From a virus: DNA of 64,000 nucleotides. This document shows positions 106 to 43,613 of the stretch, in pieces; the first letter of the stretch is position 1; every line of letters starts with the position of its first letter. Location of the stretch: the IMG/VR virus record IMGVR_UViG_3300042008_000003, positions 23,841-87,840 of that record; one strand, given 5' to 3'. The notes under the pieces are model-generated. The model worked only from the letters and a program-made list of their open reading frames with translations. It ran no database searches and was not told where the DNA came from. Both the position numbers and the translations under genes were made by a program.

Positions 106-858
106 ATGTTGCGTGATAATGAAAGGTGGGTGCCAGGCCTAGAGAGCAAGTATGCTGCTGATACAGATGGGAATATTATTTCCTATATTAAGAAGCGAAT
201 TGTTATGGTCGGAGGTGTTCTCTATGACCGTAAACGTGGCTACAGAACTTATAGAATATTTACCTATAAAGTGTCAGGTAAGTCTAAGCTAGAGTACTTT
301 CATAGGTGTATAGCTAAAGCATTCCTAGATAATCCTGAAAATAAGCCATACGTCAATCATATTGATGGGAACAAGCTGAACAATAGATTGTCAAATCTTG
401 AATGGGCTACTCCTACAGAAAATGCACAACACGCTTGGGATACAGGTTTGATGCAAGGCGTTCTAGATTTCCACTCAAACTATGATGCATTTGTCCGCGC
501 TGGCCTCCACCGCGAAAAAGTTATTGATAAGTACTTACAAACAGGCTTATGTGAAGATGGGATCACAAATTTCACGATAGAAAACTATTTGATGAGTTAT
601 GACTTCAAGAGAAACCACATCCCTCCTGAATTTGAGGGGACTAGTATTAAAAATGGTTCTTATCTGAATGAGTGGTATTTTAGGTTTGCTGTTATGTCTT
701 TATTAGAGAATTCTAGCTATACACTAACGGAAATAAGTTCAAAGGTGAAGCTTGATCTTACGATGGTGTCTAGAATCAAAAATAAAATTCGTTGGCAAGA
801 CTCTTGGGATGTCTACAATAAATATAAAAACAATACTTGGTATAATCCACTTATTTAA
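106..858 (+). CDS. HNH homing endonuclease (NUMOD4/HNH_3-like N-terminal half)
   Basis: FHRCIAKAFLDNPENKPYVNHIDGNKLNNRLSNLEWAT..EN..HA is the classic phage HNH motif; possible C-terminal HTH. Confidence 0.85.
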   Translation: MLRDNERWVPGLESKYAADTDGNIISYIKKRIVMVGGVLYDRKRGYRTYRIFTYKVSGKSKLEYFHRCIAKAFLDNPENKPYVNHIDGNKLNNRLSNLEWATPTENAQHAWDTGLMQGVLDFHSNYDAFVRAGLHREKVIDKYLQTGLCEDGITNFTIENYLMSYDFKRNHIPPEFEGTSIKNGSYLNEWYFRFAVMSLLENSSYTLTEISSKVKLDLTMVSRIKNKIRWQDSWDVYNKYKNNTWYNPLI

Positions 859-877
859 TATTTATTTTCACCAACTA

Positions 878-907
878 TTGACAGGAAGCTTTAATTGGTG
901 ATACACT
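878..907 (+). promoter_or_regulatory. sigma70-type promoter
   Basis: TTGACA ... TG-A-TACACT (extended -10, 18-bp spacer). Confidence 0.55.
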
Positions 908-942
908 CTCTTTTATGAATTGAACACAACAGGAGAGATTAA

Positions 943-1287
943 ATGAATGAGTACAAGATTCTTGTTACAGGTAATGATAGTATTGGCTATAACTTCATTA
1001 AGAATGTTGTTGAGCTAGCCAGTATGGGTGCTACCCTTGAAGATGGTAAAGTGCCAACAATGCGCTTCCCTTTCTCAGCTTGGATGTATTTGAAGACTGA
1101 TAAGCTTATGGAAAGTAAACCGGGATTTCAGTTTCAGATTATGCAAGAGAACTTTACTAAAGAACAGCTTGATGAACTAGAATGGTCAGAGTTCAAAGCT
1201 GTAGTCAAGAAGAAGCATGGTATTGGAGGTCGCGACCGTCAGGTTATGACTCAGCAGTATTTGAAAGCAAGTGGTCAAGTAGAGTAA
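943..1287 (+). CDS. hypothetical phage protein upstream of terminase
   Basis: 114-aa ORF, AGGAG RBS. Confidence 0.75.
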   Translation: MNEYKILVTGNDSIGYNFIKNVVELASMGATLEDGKVPTMRFPFSAWMYLKTDKLMESKPGFQFQIMQENFTKEQLDELEWSEFKAVVKKKHGIGGRDRQVMTQQYLKASGQVE

Positions 1288-1297
1288 CGAAGTACAA

Positions 1298-1376
1298 TGA
1301 GAGCGAACGGATGGCCATCCCCGCTAACTGCCAACTCGGTTAGCTAGTTCTCACCCTATTTAATCTAGTTGGAGAT
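1298..1376 (+). ncRNA. candidate structured cis-regulatory RNA (three-way junction plus pseudoknot to the RBS)
   Basis: Stems TGAGAGC/GTTCTCA, GGAT/ATCC and GCTAACTG/CGGTTAGC; loop CCAACT is complementary to AGTTGG, which overlaps the SD. Confidence 0.55.
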
Positions 1377-1384
1377 ACAAAAGT

Positions 1385-2350
1385 TTGAACTACACTAAAA
1401 TTTACAATGCTTTGGTGGAAAAAGTTAAGATTCGTGGTCTCGATAAGAGTCAACATGAAGGTTATTATGAAATTCATCATATTCTTCCTAAATGTTTAGG
1501 TGGTAGTGATGATAAGAGTAATTTGGTAATGTTTACCGCTAGGGAGCATTATATTGCTCACATCCTATTGTGGAAAATGAACCCCGGACATGTGGGTTTG
1601 TTCACTGCTGCTTTCTTTATGAGTAAAAAGAGACTGTTTAAGTTCAGCTCGAAAATTTACGAAGTTTTAAAAATAGAGCAAGCCAAACAACTAGCTGAAT
1701 TTAATTCTAAGAATTCTGGATTCAATAGTCCTGTATTTAAAGATTTAACCGGGGAGGTTCGTGGGAGACTCACCGTAGTTTCTTTTGATGATTGGGTAAT
1801 TCAATCTAACGGCCAAAGAACTTCAACTTGGACATGTCTTTGTACTTGTGGTAATTATTCAACGGTACGTGCTGGAAATCTGACCAAGAATAGTGGTACA
1901 AGATCTTGTGGATGTGATCGTATTGAAAAGACTAAAGCCAATACTGGAGAAAATAATAAATTCTTCGGTAGAGTGCACTCAGATCAAGCAAAAGCGATAA
2001 TGAGAGAGAAGAAACTAGGTCGTGCTGAATGGAACAAAGGCTTAGTACGATCAGATGAAAATAAGATTAAAATTTCCGAGGGATTGAAAGCCAGAAATCG
2101 ACCTGCATGGGAAGCTGGTACAGTCCTTACAAAAGATGAACAGTTAACTAAGTGGTTGATGGCTGACTATTACTACGAATTATATCTTACTAATACCACA
2201 CTAACTTCTGCAAAGTTCACCACTCTGTATAATCGGCTACATAACGATAATTTGCCAGCAAGAGCTTTTACTGCAATGCACAGAGAATTTGTTAAAGGTT
2301 GGATTCCTTTAGAAGATGAAAGGTGGATTAAGTTTTCTAAGGAATATTAA
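1385..2350 (+). CDS. HNH homing endonuclease with NUMOD3 motifs
   Basis: HHILPKCLGGSDDKSNLV...REHYIAH; DLTG..GRLTV...C.C.CG...SCGC module; FFGRVHS...WNKG. Confidence 0.85.
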   Translation: MNYTKIYNALVEKVKIRGLDKSQHEGYYEIHHILPKCLGGSDDKSNLVMFTAREHYIAHILLWKMNPGHVGLFTAAFFMSKKRLFKFSSKIYEVLKIEQAKQLAEFNSKNSGFNSPVFKDLTGEVRGRLTVVSFDDWVIQSNGQRTSTWTCLCTCGNYSTVRAGNLTKNSGTRSCGCDRIEKTKANTGENNKFFGRVHSDQAKAIMREKKLGRAEWNKGLVRSDENKIKISEGLKARNRPAWEAGTVLTKDEQLTKWLMADYYYELYLTNTTLTSAKFTTLYNRLHNDNLPARAFTAMHREFVKGWIPLEDERWIKFSKEY

Positions 2351-3858: not shown

Positions 3859-3866
3859 GAGATACA

Positions 3867-8447: not shown

Positions 8448-8675
8448 ATGGCTGTAACAACTAAAAATGGTTGGATCTTCGCGGCTCGTGAGCTTGATGG
8501 TCGTATCACAGGCGCTACGGTTCCTGCCGCAACCACTACTGTAGCTGGTAAAGTAAAACAAATTACTTTCACTGCACAGCAAGGTACAACATTTGCTGAC
8601 TTGGCTGCTGTAACCACAGCATACAACGCATTGCTTACTAAATTGATTGCTGCTGGTATTATGCCTGCTGCGTAA
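8448..8675 (+). CDS. small head-fibre-like virion protein
   Basis: PAATTTVAGKVKQ...YNALLTKLIAAGIM; AGGAG RBS. Confidence 0.65.
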   Translation: MAVTTKNGWIFAARELDGRITGATVPAATTTVAGKVKQITFTAQQGTTFADLAAVTTAYNALLTKLIAAGIMPAA

Positions 8676-8700
8676 GTATAGATGGTGGTTAATTCTGCCC

Positions 8701-8729
8701 TTGTAATATAAGATATTTTGTGATAAGCT
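8701..8729 (+). promoter_or_regulatory. sigma70-type promoter for HNH-AP2 gene
   Basis: TTGTAA-17 bp-TAAGCT. Confidence 0.45.
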
Positions 8730-8759
8730 ATTCAGTCAAATTTAACTAGGAGATTGAGA

Positions 8760-9233
8760 ATGCATCACAACGCAAAACATGGTAAATACAAAACAAAGAC
8801 TTACGCTTCTTATCGAGCAATGATTCAAAGGGTTACGGATGAAAATCATAAAACTTTTGAACACACTGGAGGTAGGGGTATTAAGATTTGTGATCGTTGG
8901 CTTGATCCTGTTAATGGAGTTTTAAACTTCTTTGAGGATATGGGTGAACGCCCTGAAGGAACCACATTAGACCGTAAAGATGTTAATGGGGACTATTCCT
9001 TAGAAAATTGCAGGTGGACAACTTACTCTGAACAGAACTTCAACCAGACTCTTAAGTCCCATAATACATCAGGTAAAACTGGAGTTAGTTGGAACAAAGA
9101 AAAAGAGAAATGGGAAGTTTATATTTCAAAGAATAAGAAAGTAATCAAACTTGGTTATTTTAAATCTTTGGAAGAAGCTATCAAGGTAAGACAGGAAGCC
9201 GAACTAGAATACTATGGTTACACAAAGGAATAG
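8760..9233 (+). CDS. HNH-AP2 homing endonuclease
   Basis: GGRGIKICDRW...TLDRKDVNGDYSLENCRW; AP2 SGKTGVSW...LGYF...AIKVR; start moved to ATG 8760 (GGAG RBS). Confidence 0.88.
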   Translation: MHHNAKHGKYKTKTYASYRAMIQRVTDENHKTFEHTGGRGIKICDRWLDPVNGVLNFFEDMGERPEGTTLDRKDVNGDYSLENCRWTTYSEQNFNQTLKSHNTSGKTGVSWNKEKEKWEVYISKNKKVIKLGYFKSLEEAIKVRQEAELEYYGYTKE

Positions 9234-9235
9234 TT

Positions 9236-9673
9236 ATGGCATTAACTCCTGTCGAACAGGTTAGACTCCTTATAGGGGATATTCCAAGTAATCCGTTTTA
9301 TCCCCTATATACCGATGAAGAAATACAGCAGTTTTTAGATTTAACGAATCAAAATGTCTTTCAAGCAGCAAGATTGGCAGCAATTTCAGCGTCTTTCACA
9401 GTTGCTGGTTATAGTACAAGGGAGCGTACAGGGGACATTGAAGTTGAAAATAATTACGCCAAGAACTATCTAGCAGCCCTTGGTAACTTCATCAATAATC
9501 CTACTTTCGCCATTCCCCCAGGTTTATTCCCTTGGTCCGCTAACAAATGTCCAAGTAAGCTTATGAATATTGAAGTATGCGATGGAGATAATTGCAGGGA
9601 AGCAATTTCTTGTGAAACTGGCTGTGGATGTAATGACTGTCATGCTGTTGGTGAGACATTTGTCTACCCTTAA
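9236..9673 (+). CDS. head-tail adaptor
   Basis: VRLLIGD...YTDEEI motif; position; Cys-rich C-terminus. Confidence 0.7.
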   Translation: MALTPVEQVRLLIGDIPSNPFYPLYTDEEIQQFLDLTNQNVFQAARLAAISASFTVAGYSTRERTGDIEVENNYAKNYLAALGNFINNPTFAIPPGLFPWSANKCPSKLMNIEVCDGDNCREAISCETGCGCNDCHAVGETFVYP

Positions 9674-10570: not shown

Positions 10571-11100
10571 TGAGCATTTACAGTGACGTAGCTGATGGAT
10601 TGATACAAGCTGCAACATCAGCATTATCTGAGTTCACAGACCCTCTTGTGATACTTAGTCATCAAAATGGTGCTGAATCTTCTCAAACTTATTGTGTTAT
10701 TAACATTCTCAATATTCAGCAGCAAGGGCACCATAGTACTTCTTCTCAGACTAGAGCTAACTTTGAATTAAACATCAGAGTTGTATATGAAGTTATGGCT
10801 CAGTTTAGTTTTATCGGTAGTCAGTCTGGGGATATGGCTCAAAGCTTTACACAACGTTTAAATAACAACCCTATTATGCTACAAACCCTCAAGAAAAATA
10901 ATCTGGGGTTTATGCGTAAGAGTCAGATTAGAAGAGCCCCACAGAAAAGAGATACCCAGTGGGTAGAGTATCACAATATAGATGCAACATTTAACTACAT
11001 TGTAAACACTACAGAAGTTAGTGATTATGTAGAATCTATTATTGTTGACTCAGAACAAACAGGTGTTTTTACAGTACCTGAAGGTATCATAATTCCGTAA
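10570..11100 (+). CDS. tail terminator/neck protein
   Basis: Position immediately before the sheath gene. Confidence 0.65.
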   Translation: MSIYSDVADGLIQAATSALSEFTDPLVILSHQNGAESSQTYCVINILNIQQQGHHSTSSQTRANFELNIRVVYEVMAQFSFIGSQSGDMAQSFTQRLNNNPIMLQTLKKNNLGFMRKSQIRRAPQKRDTQWVEYHNIDATFNYIVNTTEVSDYVESIIVDSEQTGVFTVPEGIIIP

Positions 11101-11176
11101 GAAGGCATTCGTATGCCGCAATTAAATATTAAAACAAGGATTAACGAATGTCTTTTAATTATATCGAGGTGTGCCT

Positions 11177-12470: not shown

Positions 12471-12526
12471 TTTACAGAAAACCTCTTAGATGGTATGATC
12501 TCAAGTCATTTTATTTAGGAGGTTTT
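12471..12526 (+). promoter_or_regulatory. sigma70 promoter nested in an RBS-sequestering hairpin
   Basis: TTTACA-17-TATGAT; AAAACCTCTTAGAT pairs with ATTTAGGAGGTTTT (14 bp, 2 G-U). Confidence 0.7.
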
Positions 12527-13330
12527 ATGAAGAATTGCTATCTATACAAAATTGTTAATAAAGTTAATGGTAAGCTATATATTGGAATAACCTCTGACCC
12601 TAGAAAAAGAAAACAAAGACATTTTTCTAAAACGGGTCATAGTGCAGTTTCTCTTGTACGACTTGCTATGGATAAATATGGAAGAGAGAACTTTTCTTTT
12701 GAAATTATCTGTCTTGGAAGTAAAGAATATATTCTTGATCTAGAAGTAAAAGCCATTTCTCTATACCGGACTTGTGAAAAGAAGTTTGGTTATAATATTA
12801 AACCTGGCGGTCAATCAGGGGCTGGCTACATGATAAACGGTAGCAAGAAAGACACCCCGGTTTTCGTAAGTGGTTGGTGGTTTCCTGTTCGACGTGTAGC
12901 AATTAAGGCCCTCAATATTACTACTCATATGTATAAAAACTACCAAAAGAATGGAACTTTAGGAGATATTGTACGTGGTAAAAGAGGTGCCGTTTATGTG
13001 GATGGTAATATTTACTCTCCGGTATATGTTGCTGATTTCTGGTTCACTAATCGTAAAACAGCCGCAGACAAATTAGGTCTGCCTTATTCCACAGTACAAA
13101 ATAGAATTTACAAAGGTTTTACTGGAACTAAGAAGGGGCAAAAAGATCAGTACGGGAAAAATAATAATTTCTTTGGCGTTGATCCAAAAGACCATCCAAG
13201 TTCAGTAGCAGTAATCATTAATGATATTAAATATGATAGTATTAAACAGGCCACGGAAGCTACGGGGTTTTCTAAATATATTATCAACTCAAGAATAAAA
13301 GAAAATCATATTGATTTTCGATACGCATAG
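12527..13330 (+). CDS. GIY-YIG homing endonuclease
   Basis: YLYKIVNKVNGKLYIGIT...RKQRH...E...GYNIKPGG; repeated C-terminal DNA-binding modules. Confidence 0.9.
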   Translation: MKNCYLYKIVNKVNGKLYIGITSDPRKRKQRHFSKTGHSAVSLVRLAMDKYGRENFSFEIICLGSKEYILDLEVKAISLYRTCEKKFGYNIKPGGQSGAGYMINGSKKDTPVFVSGWWFPVRRVAIKALNITTHMYKNYQKNGTLGDIVRGKRGAVYVDGNIYSPVYVADFWFTNRKTAADKLGLPYSTVQNRIYKGFTGTKKGQKDQYGKNNNFFGVDPKDHPSSVAVIINDIKYDSIKQATEATGFSKYIINSRIKENHIDFRYA

Positions 13331-13339
13331 GAAAATCTA

Positions 13340-13870
13340 ATGGCCGATAATTTTATTGGTAGCTACTCGCCGGATGACTTCACGATTGTACTGTCCAAGG
13401 GTAACTTTGTGCATACTATTACTGGGTATGCAGATGGTACTTTTGTTAGTATGGACAGACTAGTACCATCTAGTACGCCTTATCAGGGAGTTGGTGGATC
13501 GCCATTTGGTCGGGTACGTCGAAGAGTAACAGCTATGAACGTTACTATAACTCTTCACCAGTATTCACCAAGTAATACTATTCTTCAACAACTACAAATT
13601 GCCGACGCTAATACAACTAATAACGATTTTGTATTTAATTGTATGCTCAAAGATCCTAGTGGGCAGACAGTTGCATCTTCCAATAGCGCAATCATTGTTG
13701 CCCCTCCAACAGTACAATTCAGTTCTGATACAAGTACCCGAGACTGGGCTATTTATCTGTTTGGTTCAGACTTGTTTATTGGTGGTAACATTCCACTGAC
13801 TGATTCTGAAGTTGCTGCTGTGGAAGCTACTGGCGGTAATGTTGACCCTAGATGGCAGCTAAACCCATAA
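13340..13870 (+). CDS. tail tube protein (DUF3277-like)
   Basis: YSPDD...ITGYADGTFV...ITLHQYSPSN; follows the sheath. Confidence 0.8.
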   Translation: MADNFIGSYSPDDFTIVLSKGNFVHTITGYADGTFVSMDRLVPSSTPYQGVGGSPFGRVRRRVTAMNVTITLHQYSPSNTILQQLQIADANTTNNDFVFNCMLKDPSGQTVASSNSAIIVAPPTVQFSSDTSTRDWAIYLFGSDLFIGGNIPLTDSEVAAVEATGGNVDPRWQLNP

Positions 13871-13876
13871 TTGAAT

Positions 13877-13922
13877 GGGCAGATTTGATCAGATTATAAA
13901 TCTTATCTGCCCTCTCTTTTTA
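13877..13922 (+). terminator. intrinsic terminator after first tube gene
   Basis: GGGCAGAT...ATCTGCCC stem followed by TCTCTTTTT. Confidence 0.6.
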
Positions 13923-13935
13923 TTAAGGAGCTTTT

Positions 13936-14439
13936 ATGGCAGGAATTTTTAACTACTGTCCTGATGATGTGGTCTGCCTGATTGGTGGGCTTCTTTCTGT
14001 AGAAGGTTTTGTAGACGGGACTTTCATATCTATCCGTAAAGACATTCTACCATTCACTTCTGGTAGAACTTCTGATGGGCAAGTTGGAAGACTCTACCAA
14101 AGCGATCAAACTTATACAATTACTTTGACTCTGCATGCTGGCTCTTTTTCTAATGATGTGCTGACTAAGTTTTGGCAATTAGATGAAATTAGTCAAAGAG
14201 GCAAGTTCCCCCTGCTGGTGAAGGATTCCTCTGGATCTGATTTATTCTTTAGTACCAATACTTGGATTGAAGGTATTCCTACTCTCTCTAAGAGTGCTTC
14301 AGTTGACAGCAGAGTGTGGATCTTAAGAAGTTCTCAAGCAGTTATCAATATTGGCAGTAATGCTAATGAGCAAAGTATTATTCAAGATCTTCTGAATATT
14401 GCTACAGGTGCACTTCCTATTTTAGAAGGAATCCTATAA
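13936..14439 (+). CDS. tail tube-like protein 2
   Basis: YCPDDV...GFVDGTFI...TLTLHAGSFSN; paralogous to 13340. Confidence 0.75.
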   Translation: MAGIFNYCPDDVVCLIGGLLSVEGFVDGTFISIRKDILPFTSGRTSDGQVGRLYQSDQTYTITLTLHAGSFSNDVLTKFWQLDEISQRGKFPLLVKDSSGSDLFFSTNTWIEGIPTLSKSASVDSRVWILRSSQAVINIGSNANEQSIIQDLLNIATGALPILEGIL

Positions 14440-14936
14440 TGGCTAATAGCTTCACTGTAACGACATACTCCCCAAAAGATGTACAATTATCTATTGGTGG
14501 GTATCAAATTGTTGGTTGGGATAGTATTTCTATTGCTAGGAGTGTAAAAGGATTTACAACAATTAGAGGAATTAGAGGTAAACATACAAGAGTTCCCAAT
14601 GTGGACACATCTTGCACTATCACAATCCCTTTGATTCAATTCTCTCCTAGTAATGATGTCCTATCTTATATTCATAAATTAGACTTAGATAGAGGAACAG
14701 CCCGCATCTCTCTTACTTTAAAAGATAGATCAGGTGGTAGTGTATATTCATCTAATGAAGCCTATATTACAGGCTACCCTACAGCAACATACTCTGGACA
14801 GTTTGAGTACAGGAGTTGGGAGATTTTTGCACAAACTACCGATACTTACACTGTTGCAGGCAATACAAGACCATCTACTAGCATCTTTGATAGTATTGTC
14901 AATGAAGCTAGTGATTTTGTAAACAATTTAATCTGA
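14439..14936 (+). CDS. tail tube-like protein 3
   Basis: YSPKDV...PLIQFSPSN...LKDRSG...RSWEI; paralogous to 13340. Confidence 0.75.
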   Translation: MANSFTVTTYSPKDVQLSIGGYQIVGWDSISIARSVKGFTTIRGIRGKHTRVPNVDTSCTITIPLIQFSPSNDVLSYIHKLDLDRGTARISLTLKDRSGGSVYSSNEAYITGYPTATYSGQFEYRSWEIFAQTTDTYTVAGNTRPSTSIFDSIVNEASDFVNNLI

Positions 14937-20184: not shown

Positions 20185-20195
20185 GGTGATGAATA

Positions 20196-20570
20196 ATGGA
20201 CTTCAAATTAGACCCTCTTGAGCATGACATTCTCTGGAAAAACGGACCTTTGACCAAAGATTGTACCACTCAACCCTACACTGAAACAGTTGGTCAACGA
20301 TTAAAGATTAGACTTCTAACATTCATGGGTGAATGGTTTCTTGATACAACATATGGCGTCCCGTACTGGCAGAGATTGTTAGGTATCAAGCAAACATCTA
20401 AGGCTGCTATTGACCTTATATTTCAACAACAAATCTTAGCAGAGTCCGGAGTAAAAGAGATTGTAAGCTTTGATTCCACTTTTAAAAACAGACAATATTC
20501 ACTTAGTTTTAGGGTGAAGGTTGTTACAGGTCAGATCACAGCACCTATTATTGTTCAGCCGGTTAATTAA
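20196..20570 (+). CDS. baseplate wedge/sheath initiator (gp25-like)
   Basis: RLLTFMGEWFLDTTYGVPY. Confidence 0.8.
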   Translation: MDFKLDPLEHDILWKNGPLTKDCTTQPYTETVGQRLKIRLLTFMGEWFLDTTYGVPYWQRLLGIKQTSKAAIDLIFQQQILAESGVKEIVSFDSTFKNRQYSLSFRVKVVTGQITAPIIVQPVN

Positions 20571-20613
20571 TACCCTCTGTACAGACAAGTAACCAAATTC
20601 TTAAGGAAATAAA

Positions 20614-20718
20614 ATGGCGGGTATTTCTGACCAAGGCTTTACAATTAAAAGAATGACAGAGATACTTTCAGACTTACGTGCTGAAGCTACCTCTTTATTT
20701 CAAGATTGTGAGGAGTAG
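20614..20718 (+). pseudogene. stranded 5' fragment of baseplate J gene
   Basis: MAGISDQGFTIKRMTEILSDLRAEATSLFQD is 22/31 identical to the N-terminus of 21649..23091; AAGGA RBS. Confidence 0.85.
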
Positions 20719-20722
20719 CAAA

Positions 20723-21661
20723 ATGCTCTTGTCAGAATACTACTCCACGAGTAAACACAGCCTTAATGGTAATTCCTATGAAATATTATCTTATGGTAAG
20801 AATCAAAGATCTGTTTTCTTATTAAAATGTATCGTTTGTGGCGAAGAAGTAAGCATAAGACCTGCATCTGTGTTGTCTGGAAGAAAACCTTGTTCGTGTA
20901 ATAATCTAGCATCATCCCCAGAAAAGAAAATTAAACGTTTACTTCCTATCTTAAAACAGAAAAATTTAAAACTCTTGTCTGTTGAGATTCAAAGAGCCAA
21001 AGACCCTATTCAGATAGAATGTCTTGTCTGTAATAATACTTGGTCAGGTACTTATAACGGATTAGTTTTAAAGGGAACTGGTTGTAAATTCTGCGCGAAT
21101 AATGTAAGACCAACAGAAGAGCAATTTCAAGAGCAGATCGAAAAATTAGGTAGAAGTTTAGATTTTAGTTTTATTAGCATGGAATACTCCACAGACGTAA
21201 AACTTAGAAAAGTTCCAATTAAGCTAAATTGTTTGAAATGTAAAAAATCTTGGATAACTACATCTGCAAGTATTAGAAAAGGGAGTACTTGTCCGCAATG
21301 TGCGTACTCTGGATTTAATCCATTAAAACCCGCCAAGTTATATATCCTTAAAGTCATTTCCTCAGATAATATCTTACAAGGCTATAAGTACGGGATAACT
21401 TGTGATATAGAAAGAAGACTGTATGAGCATCATAGAGATTGTAAAAGTTTAGGTTTAAAATTTGAAGTTTCCTATATCTGGCAGTATGAAAACGGTGACT
21501 TGGCTCAATTTCACGAACGTTTAATTAAGTCTAAATTCGGAAGTTACTTTAACCTACAAGAACTTCCAAGTGGATTTACAGAATCTGTCCCAATATACAG
21601 CTTATCAGAATTGGTTGACTTTCAGTCCCAACAATACAGGAAGGAATTATGGCTGGATTAA
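20723..21661 (+). CDS. zinc-ribbon-repeat plus GIY-YIG-type homing endonuclease
   Basis: Three CxxC...C-rich repeats; C-terminal LYILK...YKYGIT.DIERRL..H...GFTE; start moved to ATG 20723 (GAGGAG RBS). Confidence 0.8.
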   Translation: MLLSEYYSTSKHSLNGNSYEILSYGKNQRSVFLLKCIVCGEEVSIRPASVLSGRKPCSCNNLASSPEKKIKRLLPILKQKNLKLLSVEIQRAKDPIQIECLVCNNTWSGTYNGLVLKGTGCKFCANNVRPTEEQFQEQIEKLGRSLDFSFISMEYSTDVKLRKVPIKLNCLKCKKSWITTSASIRKGSTCPQCAYSGFNPLKPAKLYILKVISSDNILQGYKYGITCDIERRLYEHHRDCKSLGLKFEVSYIWQYENGDLAQFHERLIKSKFGSYFNLQELPSGFTESVPIYSLSELVDFQSQQYRKELWLD

Positions 21662-23091
21662 CTAATTCAGGTTTTGAAATAAAAAGGATGACTCAAATCT
21701 TGTCAGATTTGAGGGCAGAAGCTGTAACTTTATTTACGGATTTGCTGGAACCCGGCGATCAGGTCGATACATCTAGTAGTTCGGCCCTAGGTCGCCTTGT
21801 GGCTCTTGTTAGCCCAAGTCTAGCAGATTTATGGGAAGTGGCACAAGCTGATTACCAGGCATTTGATCCCAACTCTGCTACAGGTATTGCTCTGGATAAT
21901 CTTGTAGCTCTTGGTGGTATCACCAGACAAGAACAGACATACTCCACGGCACAAGTAGTTGTCTCAGGGGATAACGGTACTTTGGTATCCTCGGGCCTTA
22001 CTATAGGCAGCTCAATTGACAGCAGTCAGTGGACAATTCTATCACCTGTAGCACTTTCCCCTTCTCAAGCTGTCGGTATTACAGTTACTCCTGTAACAGT
22101 TTCTAACACAAGTGTTTATAGCATAACTTATACATCTATCACCACATCAAACACTATCAACTACACTAGTGATGCTTCGGCTACAGCTGCTGAGATTGTG
22201 GCTGGTTTGAATGCTACAATTATTGCAAGCCACCCAAGCCTTGTCAGCAGCATTGAAGGAACAAGCCTTAAGATTAGTCGTGTTGATGAATTCTCAGCAG
22301 TAACCTTCACGGTAACATCTAACCTTGGTATTACAAAAGTACAAAAACTTGGTGAGGTTCGTAGTAGTGTAGTTGGAGAAGTTAACGCTGAAGCCGGTAC
22401 ACTCACTGTTATCCTTACACCTCAACTTGGTTGGGATAGTGTAACAAACCCACAAGCTGCAAGTCCAGGGCGTAATCTTGAGACTGATGAAGAACTACGT
22501 TTAAGGTTCAGAGAGACTAAGTTTGAGAGAGCATCTAATATCCTAGAAGCTCTATACTCAGCCCTGATCAACCTTGAGGGTGTTGAGGAAGTGCGTATCT
22601 ATGAGAATGATACTGATGTTATAGATGCTTTTGGTGTCCCTGCACACAGCTTCATGCCAATTATTCTTGGTGGTGTAAGTATAGATATAGCTAATACCAT
22701 ATGGGAAAATAAGCCAATGGGTATCAGAAGCTATGGTGATACCATAGTTGTAATCTTTGATACTCAAGGTTTCTCTCATAATATTGGTTTTGAAAGACCA
22801 GATCCACAGCCTGTTTATATTACTGTTAATTTAACAACAGATAGTGATTTCCCAGGAACTGGTGTTGATGATATCAAATCTGCATTAATAGCATACTTTA
22901 ATTCTAATCTTGGTATTGGTGATGATGTTATTTGGAGCAGGTTATTCACACCTATTAATACAGTGAAAGGTCATGAGGTAGATAGTTTGTTTATTGGAAC
23001 TTCTCCTAGCCCAACAGGTGTTGATAGTATCCCTATATCTTTTGATATGATCGCAAGTTTATCCTCAGATAACATAATTGTGAATACATAA
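21649..23091 (+). CDS. baseplate J-like wedge protein
   Basis: ATGIALDNL, GRNLETDEELRLR, LEGVEEVRIYEN. Confidence 0.9.
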   Translation: MAGLTNSGFEIKRMTQILSDLRAEAVTLFTDLLEPGDQVDTSSSSALGRLVALVSPSLADLWEVAQADYQAFDPNSATGIALDNLVALGGITRQEQTYSTAQVVVSGDNGTLVSSGLTIGSSIDSSQWTILSPVALSPSQAVGITVTPVTVSNTSVYSITYTSITTSNTINYTSDASATAAEIVAGLNATIIASHPSLVSSIEGTSLKISRVDEFSAVTFTVTSNLGITKVQKLGEVRSSVVGEVNAEAGTLTVILTPQLGWDSVTNPQAASPGRNLETDEELRLRFRETKFERASNILEALYSALINLEGVEEVRIYENDTDVIDAFGVPAHSFMPIILGGVSIDIANTIWENKPMGIRSYGDTIVVIFDTQGFSHNIGFERPDPQPVYITVNLTTDSDFPGTGVDDIKSALIAYFNSNLGIGDDVIWSRLFTPINTVKGHEVDSLFIGTSPSPTGVDSIPISFDMIASLSSDNIIVNT

Positions 23092-30303: not shown

Positions 30304-30816
30304 TCAAGCTTTTGTTAGGCAATTTTTACACATACAGACGTCATTCATTTCCAACCCTTTACTCTGTACACAATAAGTCTGAATAACCCATTCAGCAAAC
30401 AAAATAAGCTGCTCAGGATTAGCTGAACTCTTCATACAATTTGCAAGGTGGCTGATAACCTGAACATTTCCCTTGACATACCCAAGCTCGTTGTCAATCC
30501 TGTCAAGAGCAGGTGAATGGTTTTCTCCACCAGCCCTACCTTTGTGGACGACTAAAGGAATTCCAAGAATAGGGCAGAATTCAGGAATGATAATATCTGA
30601 CACTTCAATATCAAACGGCACACCAGACTTAACAACTCTAGACTTGGCACGTCTCCACATTTTGATTTCTGGTGACTGACTCTTAACTCTACCGGAGTTA
30701 CAGACGCCACAAAGAGTTACTGTAGGACTTGTTCTCTCGTAAATGACTAAACAATTTGTACACTGTCTGTGTGTTTCATTTGTTAACCAACCTTCTCTGT
30801 TCTTAATTAATTCCAT
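30304..30816 (-). CDS. HNH-type homing endonuclease
   Basis: CPILGIPL...SPALDRIDNELGYVKGNVQVISHLANCMK; N-terminal CxxC pairs. Confidence 0.8.
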   Translation of the reverse strand: MELIKNREGWLTNETHRQCTNCLVIYERTSPTVTLCGVCNSGRVKSQSPEIKMWRRAKSRVVKSGVPFDIEVSDIIIPEFCPILGIPLVVHKGRAGGENHSPALDRIDNELGYVKGNVQVISHLANCMKSSANPEQLILFAEWVIQTYCVQSKGLEMNDVCMCKNCLTKA

Positions 30817-30861
30817 TTTAAACCTTAAATAAAAATAGCCCCACTTAAGGGGCTTTAAAAG

Positions 30862-38277: not shown

Positions 38278-38508
38278 TTATTTATAAGCCTCATCAAATT
38301 CTTCACTACTGAGTTGCCTAAAATAGGCAATATTTTTATCTATGTCTTTTTCAGATAAATTTCCTAGACCTTTAATTTCTAAAGGATCAACCATTACATT
38401 AAGCCTGTTTTCAAGGAGTAGTTCAAGGATCTTATCAACCTTGGCTTCTAATACACCAATTAGAATACTCAGTTCTGTATACATGGTTTCTTTACTTAGC
38501 TTGCTCAT
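38278..38508 (-). CDS. hypothetical protein
   Basis: GGAG RBS, in operon. Confidence 0.6.
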   Translation of the reverse strand: MSKLSKETMYTELSILIGVLEAKVDKILELLLENRLNVMVDPLEIKGLGNLSEKDIDKNIAYFRQLSSEEFDEAYK

Positions 38509-39043
38509 TGTATTTCTCCTGTTCTAGCACTTTACGAACAGCATCACGCCTACTTTTTGCATTCTTAGCTACTACAACATTACGTTCTTTAAGCCAAGAA
38601 TCAATCTGTGATGCTTTCAGTTTCATAATAATTAATACCTCTTTTTCAATGAATGCAGATTTAATATCAATCCCCAACCTTTGACTAAGAGAGACAGCCG
38701 CATGGCAGTCAGGGCACAACTCTCTAATATCATCGAATGTGACCCATAGTATCATTTTAGACCATTCACAGAAGCTTGTCCAGTCTTTAAATCCATATCC
38801 TCCGTGTAAATGATCCACTTCACAAGCTCTGTGCTGCTTACCACACATCTCGCAGTCACTTACAAACACCTCCTTGTTATTCTTTCCCACTGGAGCTTTA
38901 TACCGTCTGGACATCTTATAAGCAATCTTCACTGGTGCTCGTGACCAAATGCGACGAATCTGAGAGCGTAGCCAATTAAAATAAGCTTTCTCGTCTTTAA
39001 ATATGTGTGGTACATCCTCCCAAGGTTGACGCTGATTATCCAT
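38492..39043 (-). CDS. HNH/Zn-finger endonuclease (resident replication-module nuclease)
   Basis: WLRSQIRRIW; CEMCG...EVDH...LCPDCH; start placed at ATG 39043. Confidence 0.75.
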   Translation of the reverse strand: MDNQRQPWEDVPHIFKDEKAYFNWLRSQIRRIWSRAPVKIAYKMSRRYKAPVGKNNKEVFVSDCEMCGKQHRACEVDHLHGGYGFKDWTSFCEWSKMILWVTFDDIRELCPDCHAAVSLSQRLGIDIKSAFIEKEVLIIMKLKASQIDSWLKERNVVVAKNAKSRRDAVRKVLEQEKYNEQAK

Positions 39044-39554
39044 GGTTTGCGTACTCGCCATGAAAATCCTCTCGTTTAGTCTTCAGAACTTCTTGAGCAG
39101 CCTCTACAGTCGAAAATAGCCCAAGATTGTGCATTACCTTGTCTACTTGGATTCTTGCTGCGTACTTACCAGTTGCTGGGTGGTAGGTTACACCCTTAAC
39201 TCCTGTTTGACTATTATAATTAATCTTAGCGTTCTGTGCATTTTTACCTTGAGCTAAGCGAAGATTTGATTTTGAATTATCAGATCTGTCGGTATTTATA
39301 TGATCAATTTCATCCTCTGGCAGCTCACCGTAGCAGAACAACCAAGCTAGACGGTGAGCTGCATATCGTTCACCATCAATTTGTATCCTATAATAACCGC
39401 TGCCCTTGTGTAGTTTATCAGCCCGTTGTCCAATCTTCACAGGAGAAAATTTACTTGATTTGTTTATCCAAGTAAACATCCCGGTGTATTCATCATAAGA
39501 TAACAAGTACTTTAACCTATCTTCGGTTATACCTCTGAGTTTAATTTTATCCAT
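39036..39554 (-). CDS. HNH-AP2 homing endonuclease
   Basis: AHRLAW...IDHINTDRSDNSKSNLR; TGVKGV...LGLF...FHGEYANHG. Confidence 0.9.
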   Translation of the reverse strand: MDKIKLRGITEDRLKYLLSYDEYTGMFTWINKSSKFSPVKIGQRADKLHKGSGYYRIQIDGERYAAHRLAWLFCYGELPEDEIDHINTDRSDNSKSNLRLAQGKNAQNAKINYNSQTGVKGVTYHPATGKYAARIQVDKVMHNLGLFSTVEAAQEVLKTKREDFHGEYANHG

Positions 39555-40612: not shown

Positions 40613-40663
40613 ATAAATCCCCTTTAAACAAAAGCCCCGTTACCGAGGCCATGTTATTAAATC

Positions 40664-41100: not shown

Positions 41101-41477
41101 GATTTCTCCTTATCGTAGTCGTTGAATTGCTGAACTAAGCACGCTAATCAAATCAGCTTGTTCATTTGCAATAGCTGCATTAAATGCAGCATACAGATTC
41201 TTGAGTGTTTGTGCTTCTGTTTCTGTGTTCAAGGTTACTTCAGGCATTTTGAATCCTCTAATTAATGTATAGTTTTAGATTCTTGAGCAACAATCCACTC
41301 AAGATACATTTGATGCGTTTCTTCATCAAGTTCAATACGACCATCTGAAATTAATCCTCGGTCTTGTGCCTGTTGCAGCCAAGGAACTAGAACACCATCA
41401 TCTGTTACAACTTTCATAAATCTCTCCTTAAATAAGTGGCACAATCCCTGTGCCTTGTATGTTACTAAGTGCTTGAT

Positions 41478-42200
41478 TTAGAAAGGAATATCGTCATCAA
41501 AGCTGTCAAAGTCTTTTGCTGGCTGTGGAGCAGCCTTTGCTTTTGGTTTAGCTGCTGGAGTAGGAGCTTGTGGTTCCTCTTCTTTTTCAGCAGGTTTGGC
41601 CACAGACTTCTTCAGTTTATAGCTGCCGAGAATATCGTCCTCGACACTATCAGACGAACCCTTTCCTTCAAACGGAACATGTTCAACAATTTGCATGGTG
41701 TCCAGAGTAACAGTAAGTTGACCATCCTGATTCTTATAACCAAACAACTTCAGGTTAACAACAGAGCCATTACCCACGTTCTCAGTGAATGCATTACCTT
41801 CTGTATCAATCACGTTAACGTTCATTGGCAGACCCTTCTTGCTAAACTCAGGTTTGGCAATGTTGAAGCCCCACAAACCACCTACCAGATCATAATTAGC
41901 TTTGCCTTCTTCCACTTGTGAAGATAAGGCGTATTTGATTTTCCGTGGTGGCTTACTAGTCTTGGTGATACCTACTTGTGAAAATGATTTGTTAACCATC
42001 ACTTCATCCAACAAGCGATCCTTGGCCTCTTCATCCACAAAGACTGTAGCACTGAACTCTTTGTCCACGCTTTGATATTTAAGCTTTGGCTCATGCACCG
42101 CTGCATAGAAGACTACAGCATTTTTGATATAGACGTTAGCTGTCTCTAGGGTGCCAGACTTCGGCAAGTCACGAACGATCACTTCAGTTTTATTAGTCAT
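41478..42200 (-). CDS. single-stranded DNA-binding protein
   Basis: T7 gp2.5-like (VGNGSVVNL); acidic tail FDDDIPF. Confidence 0.8.
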   Translation of the reverse strand: MTNKTEVIVRDLPKSGTLETANVYIKNAVVFYAAVHEPKLKYQSVDKEFSATVFVDEEAKDRLLDEVMVNKSFSQVGITKTSKPPRKIKYALSSQVEEGKANYDLVGGLWGFNIAKPEFSKKGLPMNVNVIDTEGNAFTENVGNGSVVNLKLFGYKNQDGQLTVTLDTMQIVEHVPFEGKGSSDSVEDDILGSYKLKKSVAKPAEKEEEPQAPTPAAKPKAKAAPQPAKDFDSFDDDIPF

Positions 42201-42291
42201 TTATTTCTCTCTATTTTGGTGTGTATTTTATATGTTCACAATATTGTGAGATGTTCCCTTACTGTTGCAACATCCTATCGCTAGGAATTCT

Positions 42292-42549
42292 TTAATGTTT
42301 CGTTGGTTCTGTTTTCTTACTCTTCCCAACAGAAATATCTACAATCTCTGCCTGAGTTTCTTCCCGTTGAAGAACATCTTCGACATCTCCAAGTCCACCA
42401 AAGATATCCATCAGAGAATCTTTCAGTTGTTTACTTTGATGATCTTTCCAAGCTATGAAATCAGAATACTCCTCAAAGACATATTCTACAGTGCCGATAG
42501 AGCATTCACCAACCTTCTCTACAGTATCACGAATAGTTACTGAGCCCAT
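42292..42549 (-). CDS. hypothetical protein
   Basis: ORF in operon. Confidence 0.55.
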   Translation of the reverse strand: MGSVTIRDTVEKVGECSIGTVEYVFEEYSDFIAWKDHQSKQLKDSLMDIFGGLGDVEDVLQREETQAEIVDISVGKSKKTEPTKH

Positions 42550-42727
42550 GATTCATCGAACCTGCTTTTCAGACAGCAGTACAAACTCTTGCTGATAAAT
42601 CTTAGCAGCGGTTTTACCAAGTTCTTGCTTTACAGTTTTAAGATATGTACGAGCATCTTTACGAGTTGATGCATTAGCATACACGTTTTGTTCATCTGCT
42701 ACTACGTATTGGATTAATGTGTTCATT

Positions 42728-42910
42728 TTATTCTCCTTTCAGTTTAGAAATAGCTTCTTCAAGCTCTTTTGCTGCCTTCTCTGCTAAGGCAAGATCCCGA
42801 ACAGTGATATTCAAATCATTGCCATAATCCTCAATGTCAAACTTAAACCTTTCAATCTTTTTCACTGTTGAAACCAAGACCTCTTCCAGCTTCTTGATAG
42901 CATAACTCAT
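42728..42910 (-). CDS. hypothetical coiled-coil protein
   Basis: GGAGAGG RBS; paralogous to 40912..41100. Confidence 0.6.
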   Translation of the reverse strand: MSYAIKKLEEVLVSTVKKIERFKFDIEDYGNDLNITVRDLALAEKAAKELEEAISKLKGE

Positions 42911-42986
42911 CTTCCCTCTCCTTCATTCAGCTTGATATTTAATTTACACGTATATTATCGCATGATAATGGTGTTGTGTAAAGCTT

Positions 42987-43613
42987 TTATACATAATTTT
43001 CGTATCTATCGATCAAAGCTCTAGCAACTCTCTCATCTGTTTGCTCAGCGGCTAGAATATACGCTTGTTTTAATTTGAAGTCAAGCCAAACCTTGTGAGC
43101 TTCTTCTGGTGTTTCATAAGCTCCTAAATTTGTATTCTTACCTGTCTCTACTGATTTACACTGCGCACGGTAAAATTCTCCTTTTTTATCATAGCTCACC
43201 CCAATAGGATAATCACCCCTACGTTTATCATGTTCTACAATAAAACTGTTAACTCTAGATTCAACAAATAAACACGTATCAGGAGAATATACCTTATTTC
43301 CAGGAATAAGTAAATCTTTATCAAGCTGCTTATTTTTCCAATCTTGTGCCATCATCCAAGTTTTAAAGACACTCAGTCTCAACCAAGATTCACACACCAG
43401 ACATCCGATGTAGGTTGGGTAAACTTGTTCCGAATAACAGCGACTAAGCATATCTTGCCACTTTCTATAAAATGGACAGATCCAAATTAATTTCTGATAT
43501 CTCTTACCATTTACCTTTGGACCTTCTTCGTAAAGTTTAACATTATAATCTACATCATTGATACCCACTCCAAATAGTTTTGGTTTATTCTTCTGTGTGC
43601 GTAACGCGTTCAC
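42987..43613 (-). CDS. HNH-type homing endonuclease with AP2-like C-terminus
   Basis: FGVGIND...W..ML.RCY...LDKDLL..GNKVYSPDTC...PIGVS; overlaps the polymerase 3' end. Confidence 0.85.
   Translation of the reverse strand: MNALRTQKNKPKLFGVGINDVDYNVKLYEEGPKVNGKRYQKLIWICPFYRKWQDMLSRCYSEQVYPTYIGCLVCESWLRLSVFKTWMMAQDWKNKQLDKDLLIPGNKVYSPDTCLFVESRVNSFIVEHDKRRGDYPIGVSYDKKGEFYRAQCKSVETGKNTNLGAYETPEEAHKVWLDFKLKQAYILAAEQTDERVARALIDRYENYV

What the first reader, a model, noticed from the sequence alone, without database searches (positions are those of the whole stretch)
106..43613. Eight homing endonucleases with recurring start-capture and self-silencing designs
Seen: free-standing HNH/GIY-YIG genes at 106, 1385, 8760, 12527, 20723, 30304, 39036 and 42987. 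Seven sit beside essential genes (terL, head-tail adaptor, sheath/tube, baseplate J, nrdA, exo/endonuclease, DNA polymerase). Two duplicate the start of the downstream gene (31 codons at 20614; 8 bp at 39554), with a possible third scar at 11148. At least three have an anti-SD structure over their own RBS (75-101, 1331-1372, 12478-12526). Established: T4 seg/mob-type intronless homing and I-TevI RBS hairpins. Inference: unrelated nuclease families converged on a splicing-free way to occupy essential operons. They insert at a gene's 5' end, supply a replacement start, and stay untranslated on read-through mRNA.
Basis: partly seen in the sequence, partly recalled or inferred. Interest (0 to 1): 0.7.

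Follow-up and report, generated by a model that had tools for sequence, protein, structure and literature searches.

The report
Endonuclease cassette carrying spare gene start
This phage carries eight selfish DNA-cutting-enzyme genes; one sits inside the start of an essential tail gene and keeps that gene whole by bringing a re-spelled copy of its first 31 codons, while the others are ordinary insertions between genes.

Summary
The window is part of an 87.8-kb uncultured myovirus. All eight homing-endonuclease genes (HEGs) are real. For seven of the eight sites, relatives with an empty site were found.

The 31-codon duplication at 20614 is real and the strongest result. A 107-nt stretch (baseplate-J ribosome site plus codons 1-31) matches HE-less relative L005 at 107 of 107 nt. 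The working J start behind the nuclease matches it at only 61 of 93 nt. Of 11 other contigs with this CapR/T5orf172-like nuclease, all hold it at the same site, and 3 carry their own J-start relic broken at the same codon. This is a site-specific cassette that replaces a gene start, mirroring fungal mitochondrial mORF "gene hybrids".

The rest of the claimed design mostly fails:
- The 8-bp repeat is near chance.
- The 11148 scar is not supported.
- HE2, HE3 and HE4 are intergenic; HE6 and HE9 sit at gene 3' ends.
- RBS-hiding hairpins hold for HE1 and HE4 but not HE2, and are not clearly enriched.

This scan noted similar spare-start cassettes before on other DNA.

The parts
20601..20707 (+). 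Displaced native start of baseplate-J gene: RBS plus codons 1-31 and 1 nt. This is the relic left of the cassette.
   Evidence: 107/107 nt identical to HE-less L005. 106/107 to L006, L007, L010 and L023.
20614..20718 (+). Relic ORF of 34 codons: J residues 1-31 plus CEE and a stop. It ends 5 nt before the HE5 ATG and could act as a coupling leader.
   Evidence: Relic ORFs in L070, L071 and L072 also stop between 6 nt before and 14 nt after the nuclease ATG.
20708..21745 (+). HE5 cassette of about 1.04 kb: a 15-nt leader, the nuclease ORF, a new RBS and re-coded J codons 1 to about 33.
   Evidence: Left junction. The right edge is where J returns to the HE-less type, 31/33 nt against L010. A contig of run X2 joins 20705 to 21746, skipping 1040 nt, with 5 other letters between.
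20723..21661 (+). HE5 nuclease gene, 312 aa: CapR zinc-finger DNA-binding repeats plus a C-terminal T5orf172/MUG113-like (GIY-YIG superfamily) domain. Its stop overlaps the J start by 13 nt.
   Evidence: CapR is above cut-off in 8/8 homologues tested. T5orf172/MUG113 is sub-threshold in 8/8 (at least one of the two).
21649..23091 (+). Functional baseplate-J gene. Its first ~33 codons are the cassette-borne copy.
   Evidence: Pfam Baseplate_J. The first 60 nt are 65% identical to L005, against about 85% further in.
106..858 (+). HE1, an HNH_3 endonuclease gene.
   Evidence: The site is empty in L029 (gap 146 nt).
75..101 (+). Hairpin that pairs the HE1 Shine-Dalgarno (AAGGGG). The promoter-like site 46-74 ends at its 5' arm.
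   Evidence: (third-lowest SD accessibility of 120 genes).
1385..2350 (+). HE2, an HNH+NUMOD3 endonuclease gene with a TTG start. Its stop overlaps the TerL ATG.
   Evidence: The g943|TerL site is empty in 2 of 9 loci and occupied by various HEGs in 7.
8760..9233 (+). HE3, an HNH+AP2 endonuclease gene at the centre of an island of high identity to L028 and L029.
   Evidence: Identity to L028 is 88-100% from about 8550 to 9550 and 45-65% outside. The site is empty in 3 of 4 loci.
12527..13330 (+). HE4, a GIY-YIG endonuclease gene between sheath and tube.
   Evidence: The site is empty in 17 of 23 loci and holds an HNH-AP2 gene in 3 and a GIY-YIG gene in 3.
12478..12526 (+). Long hairpin that pairs the HE4 Shine-Dalgarno (AGGAGG). 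The promoter-like site 12471-12499 lies over its 5' arm.
   Evidence: z -4.4; rank 2 of 120. The L019 homologue has an analogous hairpin (z -4.0).
30304..30816 (-). HE6, an EndoVII/HNH-like endonuclease gene inserted directly after the nrdA stop. It is preceded by its own terminator-like hairpin (30837-30856), and its ORF runs into the native TTGACA promoter-like box.
   Evidence: The empty site is L049 (nrdA 99% aa, gap 79 nt).
39036..39554 (-). HE8, an HNH_3 endonuclease gene between the exonuclease gene and the conserved phrog_1985 gene. ATGGATAA occurs at both its ends.
   Evidence: The site is empty in L046 and L050, where the downstream ATG overlaps the exo stop as ATGnnTAA.
42987..43613 (-). 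HE9, an HNH+AP2 endonuclease gene. Its GTG start lies 29 nt inside the 3' end of the DNA polymerase gene.
   Evidence: The last 14-20 pol residues have no counterpart in relatives.

Best explanation
The genome is heavily colonised by free-standing homing endonuclease genes. Each occupies a site that is empty or differently occupied in related phages.

Seven are ordinary insertions between genes or at gene ends.

The eighth, HE5, is an intragenic mobile cassette of about 1.04 kb. It lies after nt 94 (codon 31/32) of the baseplate-J gene. It contains the nuclease gene followed by a new ribosome site and a re-coded copy of J codons 1 to about 33. J therefore stays whole without any splicing, and the native start is left upstream as a 34-codon relic.

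Inferred mechanism: the nuclease cuts HE-less J alleles near codon 31/32. Repair from an HE-bearing genome uses the relic plus W25 as left homology and J from about codon 34 as right homology, and so copies the cassette in. The roughly 34% nucleotide divergence of the new copy protects it from cleavage and from deletion by repeat recombination. The relic ORF may couple translation of the nuclease to the native J ribosome site.

HE1 and HE4 also carry I-TevI-style hairpins over their ribosome sites.
For: SHOWN:
- The relic is identical to HE-less alleles (107/107 L005; 106/107 L006, L007, L010, L023), and identity stops exactly at 20707|20708.
- The working J start shares only 61/93 nt and 22/31 aa with the relic. 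From about codon 34, J matches HE-less alleles again (31/33 nt against L010).
- 19 of 21 related loci have W25 directly followed by J, with a gap of 12-48 nt.
- All 11 nuclease homologues found in viral contigs lie just downstream of W25, and J follows in 10 of them. L070, L071 and L072 have their own relics ending at the same LFQ(D/E)/IFG position, 7-15 nt before the nuclease ATG.
- The L072 relic is 107/109 identical to HE-less L017.
- Relic-bearing members are not one clade in the nuclease tree. The window groups (support 99/98) with relic-free L062-L065.
- An independent assembly of run X1 spans 20100-22038 with 0 differences. A contig of run X2 shows the HE-less junction.
- HE3 lies in an identity island that fits recent co-conversion.
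- No Rfam family match at gathering scores anywhere in the window, so no recognisable group I intron.

INFERRED: the cleavage position, the repair route and the translational coupling.
Against: - No nuclease activity or cut site has been measured.
- 8 of 12 contigs with the nuclease lack a relic, so the family also spreads, or persists, as a plain intergenic gene. The direction of change (relic gained or lost) is unresolved: the tree has open forks and no root.
- The near-identity of the relic to HE-less alleles could come from later recombination in the left flank rather than from a recent insertion. The first 107 nt of J are unusually uniform among HE-less relatives, so they are a poor clock.
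- For L070 and L071 no near-identical HE-less allele was among the fetched loci (best 68-83%).
- T5orf172/MUG113 matches are below Pfam cut-offs.
- Hairpin enrichment is marginal, and promoter-like sites are at chance level.
Confidence: 0.8

Rival explanations
1. Unrelated nuclease families in this genome have converged on one design: insertion in the first codons of an essential gene, a replacement start, and silence on read-through mRNA.
For: HE5 fits. HE8 starts and ends with ATGGATAA. In empty sites the downstream ATG overlaps the exo stop, and in L049 another HNH gene uses that very ATG position. HE1 and HE4 have RBS hairpins. This scan noted similar cassettes with HNH genes on other DNA (unchecked notes).
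Against: Only 1 of 8 duplications beats shuffles. The 8-mer is near chance. The 11148 scar fails. HE2, HE3 and HE4 are intergenic, and HE6 and HE9 sit at 3' ends. Only 2 of 8 have strongly hidden SDs, and HE3, HE6 and HE9 are among the most open (ranks 82, 113 and 119 of 120).
Confidence: 0.12
2. The J-start relic is a one-off scar of an illegitimate repair event, with no defined cassette and no role.
For: 8 of 12 contigs carrying the nuclease lack a relic. The junction shows no obvious homology.
Against: Four contigs with nucleases only 41-55% identical to each other break J within about 5 nt of the same position and 7-15 nt before the nuclease ATG. They fall in at least two separate parts of the tree.
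Confidence: 0.07
3. Assembly chimera between an HE-less and an HE-bearing strain.
For: The genome is a metagenome assembly, and run X2 holds both HE-less and nuclease-bearing pieces.
Against: No repeat is shared at the junction that could mislead an assembler. A second assembler's contig spans the junction with 0 differences, though possibly from the same sample. The same architecture occurs in three other contigs from other records.
Confidence: 0.01

Closest known systems
Mobile endonuclease ORFs (mORFs) of fungal mitochondria that make 'gene hybrids': Allomyces macrogynus atp6; Glomus atp6, atp9, cox2, nad3 (PMC3630166, passages read; partial C-terminal duplications beside free HEGs also in PMC6279837 and PMC7487136, passages read)
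   Same: An endonuclease ORF travels with a diverged copy of a gene end. The displaced native piece stays beside it and is (near-)identical to element-free relatives. No splicing is needed.
   Different: Here the 5' end (RBS and N-terminus) is replaced rather than the C-terminus. The host is a phage rather than a mitochondrion. The nuclease is CapR/T5orf172-like rather than LAGLIDADG or a classical GIY-YIG.
Free-standing HEGs of phages: T4 seg/mob genes and intron-less homing (recalled: Belle et al. 2002), and ICP1 T5orf172/CapR HEGs at recombination boundaries near essential genes (PMC10448857, passages read)
   Same: Nuclease families, domain architecture (CapR + T5orf172), presence/absence polymorphism, position beside essential genes, and identity islands around the HEG (HE3).
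   Different: Those elements are described as intergenic. The passages I searched for duplication, duplicated, truncated, remnant and pseudogene in PMC10448857 mention no duplicated start of a flanking gene.
T4 mobA-gene 60 cassette and Aeh1 mobE in nrdA ('genes in pieces') (recalled: Bonocora et al. 2011, Friedrich et al. 2007; only later papers citing the former were listed)
   Same: An HEG cassette inserted inside an essential coding sequence brings new translation signals, so the host function survives without splicing.
   Different: There the host gene is split into two polypeptides. Here it stays in one piece, because the cassette duplicates the N-terminal codons.
I-TevI / mobE-type control: an RBS-sequestering hairpin with a late promoter inside it (recalled: Gott et al. 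1988; Gibb & Edgell 2007)
   Same: HE1 and HE4 have hairpins over the SD, with a promoter-like site placed so that its transcript would lack the 5' arm. The L019 homologue has the same layout with a different sequence.
   Different: The promoters are consensus matches only and no expression data exist. This applies to 2 of the 8 HEGs.

Membership tests
Free-standing homing endonuclease gene (intron-less homing type) | Encodes a nuclease domain of a known HE family together with a DNA-binding module | tested here: met
   Above Pfam cut-off: HNH_3 (HE1, HE8), NUMOD3 (HE2), GIY-YIG (HE4), CapR (HE5). Only sub-threshold Pfam matches: HNH (HE2), AP2 (HE3, HE9) and T5orf172/MUG113 (HE5). HE3, HE6 and HE9 are called endonucleases from PHROG matches only; HE6 has no Pfam hit.
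Free-standing homing endonuclease gene (intron-less homing type) | Presence/absence polymorphism at the same site among related genomes | tested here: met
   Empty sites were found for HE1 (L029) and for HE2, HE3, HE4, HE5, HE6 and HE8. For HE9 only a distant comparison was possible (L059, pol 63%).
Free-standing homing endonuclease gene (intron-less homing type) | Not inside an intron or intein | tested here: met
   No Rfam family match at gathering scores anywhere in the window, while relatives L045 and L032 gave three group I intron hits in the same run. The flanking genes are intact ORFs.
Free-standing homing endonuclease gene (intron-less homing type) | Cleaves the HEG-less allele and is copied in by repair | not testable with these tools
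   Indirect evidence only: the identity island around HE3 and the relic identical to HE-less alleles.
mORF-type 'gene hybrid' cassette (endonuclease plus replacement gene end) | Endonuclease ORF flanked by two copies of one gene end, one of them fused to the working gene | tested here: met
   Met for HE5 only: score 31.5 against 9.8+-1.7. Not met for the other 7 HEGs.
mORF-type 'gene hybrid' cassette (endonuclease plus replacement gene end) | The displaced copy matches element-free relatives and the in-use copy is diverged | tested here: met
   107/107 nt to L005 against 61/93 nt between the two copies. L072 relic 107/109 to L017.
mORF-type 'gene hybrid' cassette (endonuclease plus replacement gene end) | Same insertion point in independent genomes | tested here: met
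   4 of 12 nuclease-bearing contigs have relics, and all four end at J codon 31/32.
mORF-type 'gene hybrid' cassette (endonuclease plus replacement gene end) | The endonuclease cuts at the insertion point | not testable with these tools
   Needs an in vitro cleavage assay.
T5orf172/CapR HEGs (ICP1 type) | CapR zinc-finger DNA-binding domain plus a T5orf172 nuclease domain | tested here: inconclusive
   CapR is above cut-off in 8/8. T5orf172 (7 of 8) and MUG113 (6 of 8) match the C-terminal ~70 residues only below the cut-offs, at 15-20 bits.
I-TevI-type translational silencing | Stable hairpin that pairs the Shine-Dalgarno sequence | tested here: met
   Met for HE1 and HE4. Not met for HE2 (z -1.6), and not met for HE3, HE6, HE8 or HE9.
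I-TevI-type translational silencing | Promoter inside the hairpin whose transcript frees the SD | tested here: inconclusive
   Promoter-like sites at 46-74 and 12471-12499 are placed correctly. However, such sites are at chance level overall (35 found against 33 expected) and are not enriched before HEGs (3/8 against 20/115, p=0.17).

The most novel reading that the evidence does not exclude
HE5-type cassettes home directly into codon 31/32 of the baseplate-J gene, carrying a re-coded replacement start. The displaced native start serves as a short leader ORF that feeds ribosomes from the host gene's own ribosome site to the nuclease. Start replacement would then be a general, so far undescribed phage counterpart of mitochondrial mORF gene hybrids: a third way, beside introns and inteins, for a homing endonuclease to live inside an essential coding sequence.
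Probability: 0.45. Interest if true: 0.65.

Novelty: new variant of a known kind. Interest (0 to 1): 0.55.

Why it matters
Homing endonucleases are thought to avoid harming their host either by hiding in introns or inteins or by staying between genes. This cassette shows a third solution in a phage: it sits inside an essential structural gene and brings a spare, re-coded gene start.

Three practical consequences follow:
- The relic marks the likely cleavage site of an uncharacterised CapR/T5orf172-type nuclease to within a few bases. That gives a direct biochemical test and a candidate sequence-specific nuclease.
- It explains a class of short "orphan" ORFs in front of HEGs that annotation pipelines call as genes.
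- It explains local mosaic boundaries in phage structural genes.

The negative part matters too. Most of the apparent common design across the eight genes does not survive comparison with empty-site relatives.

Tried and rejected
- Megablast of 24 kb against named phages gave no match. The nearest named TerL is 42% identical.
- No RNA holder is listed for the stretch, so nothing can be said on expression.
- The apparent TerL N-terminal duplication in L045 turned out to be two group I introns. It is not a start duplication.
- The HE6 upstream hairpin and RBS resemble those of the downstream gene (p=0.024). This does not survive correction for 8 tests, and GGGGCT-T-run hairpins are common.
- A by-eye likeness between the HE6 3' end and the nrdA 3' end (about 15/28 nt) was dropped as chance.
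- A tube-start relic in front of HE4 (ATGG..ATTTTATT) was considered and rejected (p=0.90).
- CGAATGTC, shared between 11143-11150 and the L005 sheath start, is only 8 nt and was not pursued.
- Promoter scans were at chance level.
- Start codons for the L011 and L023 GIY-YIG genes were mis-picked by my script, so their leaders were not evaluated.
- Papers that describe a duplicated start of a flanking gene beside a phage HEG were looked for in six searches. None was found. Subscription journals are largely outside that library.


Full report
**What the window is.** The window is bases 23841-87840 of an 87,840-bp viral contig rated 99% complete. Gene content is that of a contractile-tailed phage:
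- a + strand structural block: TerL, Mu-type portal, S49 protease, capsid protein E, DUF3383 sheath, tape measure, baseplate J and lysozyme;
- a - strand replication and nucleotide block: nrdAB, thyX, MazG, exonucleases and DNA polymerase.

No named phage matches at DNA level, and the best named TerL is 42% identical. Uncultured relatives are plentiful in IMG/VR. Seventy-one of their loci and one metagenome locus (L073, the same record as L070) were fetched with J, TerL, the exonuclease and the HE5 nuclease as queries. Some loci come from the same contig: L013/L029, L008/L039, L025/L026, L011/L049, L012/L066, L016/L072 and L037/L064. Locus counts below are therefore slightly larger than contig counts.

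**The eight nuclease genes.** All eight are real.

| Gene | Coordinates | Family evidence |
|---|---|---|
| HE1 | 106-858 | HNH_3 |
| HE2 | 1385-2350 | TTG start, HNH+NUMOD3, phrog_655 "homing endonuclease" |
| HE3 | 8760-9233 | HNH+AP2 |
| HE4 | 12527-13330 | GIY-YIG |
| HE5 | 20723-21661 | CapR, plus weak T5orf172/MUG113 |
| HE6 | 30304-30816 (-) | phrog_3322/EndoVII-like, no Pfam hit |
| HE8 | 39036-39554 (-) | HNH_3 |
| HE9 | 42987-43613 (-) | HNH+AP2 |

A ninth gene annotated "HNH endonuclease" by PHROGs (38492-39043) follows the exonuclease gene in all 14 comparable relatives at 26-46% identity. It is a core gene, not a mobile one. None of 16 further ORFs tested between 27.8 and 62.6 kb is a nuclease. 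Rfam finds no match to any RNA family in the window, although the same run found group I introns in relatives.

**Empty sites (unless stated).**
- W25|J: 19 of 21 loci are empty (gap 12-48 nt) and 2 hold an HE5 homologue.
- Sheath|tube: 17 of 23 are empty (18-117 nt), 3 hold an HNH-AP2 gene and 3 a GIY-YIG gene.
- g943|TerL: 2 of 9 are empty (63 nt) and 7 hold HNH-NUMOD3 or HNH-AP2 genes.
- g8448|g9236: 3 of 4 are empty (49-52 nt).
- nrdA|next gene: L049 (nrdA 99% aa) is empty, with a gap of 79 nt.
- exo|phrog_1985 gene: L046 (exo 96%) and L050 are empty.
- HE1: L029 is empty, with a gap of 146 nt.
- HE9: only a distant comparison was possible (L059, pol 63%).

HE3 also shows the classic sign of recent spread. 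It is 99% identical (aa) to the L028 copy, while the capsid gene two genes upstream (g8448 lies between) is 56% identical. DNA identity is 88-100% from about 8550 to 9550 and 45-65% outside that range.

**The J-start duplication.**
- The ORF at 20614-20718 encodes MAGISDQGFTIKRMTEILSDLRAEATSLFQD+CEE. J (21649) begins MAGLTNSGFEIKRMTQILSDLRAEAVTLFTD. The two share 22/31 aa and 61/93 nt.
- The local alignment score is 31.5 against 9.8+-1.7 in shuffles. None of the other seven HEGs beats shuffles after correction.
- The stretch 20601-20707 (RBS plus 31 codons and 1 nt) is 107/107 identical to HE-less L005, and 106/107 to L006, L007, L010 and L023. Identity ends abruptly at 20707|20708.
- Downstream of about codon 33, the working J again resembles the HE-less alleles (31/33 nt against L010).
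- The first 60 nt of J are 65% identical to L005, against about 85% further in.
- The structure is therefore native start (1-31), then a 15-nt leader, the nuclease, a new RBS with re-coded codons 1 to about 33, and then native J from about codon 34.
- A contig in run X2, from a different study, joins 20705 to 21746 with five other letters between. That is the HE-less arrangement. A second assembler's contig of run X1, which the tool marks as a possible source of this DNA, spans the junction without a difference.

**The same architecture elsewhere.**
- A scan with an alignment of three nucleases found 11 viral contigs. In all 11 the gene lies just after W25, and in 10 it lies before J (L067 is rearranged or cut).
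- Three of them (L070, L071, L072) have a J-start relic of their own. Together with the window, that makes 4 of 12.
- Each relic ends at the same place in the J protein...LFQE|...LFQE|...IFG|, and ...LFQD| in the window. Each lies 7-15 nt before the nuclease ATG, and each is about 60-66% identical in nt to its own working J start.
- The L072 relic is 107/109 identical to the J start of HE-less L017.
- The four nucleases are 41-55% identical and do not form one clade. The window groups with relic-free L062-L065 (support 99/98), L070 and L071 pair together, and L072 sits on a long branch.
- A constant break point in diverged lineages, with relics matching local HE-less alleles, is what a cassette that homes into a fixed site inside J would leave.
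- The eight relic-free contigs show that the family can also persist as a plain W25|J intergenic gene. Which form came first is open.

**Possible role of the relic.** In all four cases the relic ORF stops between 6 nt before and 14 nt after the nuclease ATG. In L070-L072 the nuclease has no good SD of its own (read). Translational coupling to the native J ribosome site is therefore plausible, but it is untested.

**Other claimed duplications.**
- ATGGATAA does stand at both ends of HE8.
- In empty sites the downstream gene's ATG overlaps the exo stop as ATGTTTAA or ATGAATAA. In L049 a different HNH gene starts at exactly that ATG. An insertion just inside the start codon region is therefore conceivable.
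- However, 8-nt shared prefixes occur in 0.24% of gene pairs and in 2 of 120 adjacent pairs. The local alignment is not significant.
- The 11148 "scar" is part of a spacer shared with L037, and the sheath simply starts at GTG 11177.

**HE6 and HE9 are at 3' ends.**
- HE6 is inserted directly after the nrdA stop codon.
- HE6 brings its own terminator-like hairpin.
- The HE6 ORF runs on into the native TTGACA-N17-TATCCT region, which in L049 follows nrdA directly.
- HE9 starts 29 nt inside pol. The last 14-20 pol residues have no counterpart in any relative, and L059 pol ends about 20 residues earlier. The insertion seems to have given pol a new tail.
- Neither element is at the 5' end of an essential gene.

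**Ribosome-site hairpins.**
- I folded -60..+30 around the starts of 123 automatically chosen genes; 120 could be scored for SD accessibility, of which 8 are HEGs.
- HE4 and HE1 have the 2nd and 3rd lowest SD accessibility.
- HE5 ranks 15th, HE2 33rd and HE8 47th. HE3, HE6 and HE9 rank 82nd, 113th and 119th.
- Accessibility below 0.01 is seen in 2/8 HEGs against 4/112 others (Fisher p=0.05). The rank test on SD accessibility gives p=0.24, and on the -15..+3 region p=0.026.
- Single folds: HE1 -15.4 kcal/mol (z -2.9), HE4 -23.8 (z -4.4), and the HE2 leader z -1.6 without the proposed pairing.
- For HE1 and HE4 a promoter-like site lies so that its transcript would start inside or after the 5' arm and so free the SD. 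The GIY-YIG gene at the same site in L019 (34% identical) has an analogous hairpin (z -4.0), with a TTGCAA-N17-TAGAAT box in its 5' arm (read from that output).
- This is the I-TevI layout (recalled). Promoter-like sites are at chance level overall, however, and are not enriched before HEGs.

**Comparison with what is known.**
- HEGs clustering beside essential genes, and T5orf172+CapR HEGs, are described for ICP1 and other phages (PMC10448857, passages read).
- The closest described architecture is the mitochondrial mORF "gene hybrid". It consists of an inserted foreign C-terminus plus an endonuclease ORF plus the displaced native C-terminus. In Allomyces the displaced piece is identical to the element-free sister species (PMC3630166, passages read). 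HE5 is the mirror image at the N-terminus, in a phage, with another nuclease family.
- Six literature searches found no description of this in phages. Subscription journals are poorly covered.
- Earlier notes of this scan report similar spare-start cassettes with HNH or GIY-YIG genes in other phage genomes. They are unchecked and are not used as evidence.

**Verdict.** The window holds one well-documented start-replacement cassette, which is a new variant of a known kind, plus seven ordinary free-standing HEGs. Two of those seven have known-type translational hairpins.

Noticed in passing
L045:10062-10276 and 10638-10854; L032:17992-18282: Relatives carry group I introns in TerL (two in L045, at the Walker A and Walker B motifs; L043 and L044 have the second position split too) and in the sheath gene (L032, with an HNH-like ORF behind it). 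The window's own TerL and sheath are uninterrupted.
   Followed up: partly
L047:2334-5043: The DNA polymerase of a close relative (93% aa) is interrupted at about residue 570 by an HNH_3-like gene. Rfam finds no intron there, so this may be a gene in pieces or an unrecognised intron.
   Followed up: no
window 38492-39043 (-): A gene called 'HNH endonuclease' by phrog_1985 is syntenic behind the exonuclease gene in all 14 comparable relatives at only 26-46% identity. In empty sites its ATG overlaps the exo stop as ATGnnTAA. It is probably a core replication or repair nuclease and not a homing gene.
   Followed up: partly
window 43585-43644 (-): The last 14-20 residues of the DNA polymerase have no counterpart in any relative, and they overlap the HE9 ribosome site and start. 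The HE9 insertion seems to have given pol a new C-terminal tail.
   Followed up: partly
J 5' end in L002-L007, L010, L011, L023 (for example L005:9988-10094): The RBS and first ~94 nt of J are 96-100% identical among 10 HE-less loci whose J genes otherwise differ. L023 J is only 62% identical in aa overall and diverges after about nt 300. This points to a recombination hot spot at the presumed nuclease target.
   Followed up: partly
window 20571-20600: About 34 nt lie between the W25 stop and the J ribosome site that are absent from the closest relative L006. Their origin is unknown.
   Followed up: no
window 20100-22300 in run X2: One aquatic metagenome run holds an HE-less J junction contig (depth 11.4). 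It also holds pieces of the HE5 gene with 1-3 differences per ~180 nt (depth 2), while its W25 pieces differ at 15-18 positions per ~200 nt. HE-bearing and HE-less relatives may co-occur, and the nuclease gene is better conserved than its flank.
   Followed up: no
window 13340-14936: Three adjacent paralogous tube-like genes (13340, 13936, 14439) hit each other at 25-39% identity in all relatives.
   Followed up: no
window 58001-60000: G+C rises to 0.459 against about 0.38-0.40 elsewhere. ORFs there have no Pfam match and there are no tRNAs.
   Followed up: no
window 46-74 and 878-907: HE1 and the next gene (g943) are each preceded by a TTGAC(T/A)-N17/18-TG-n-TACACT box. This may be the phage's promoter type for this region.
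   Followed up: no
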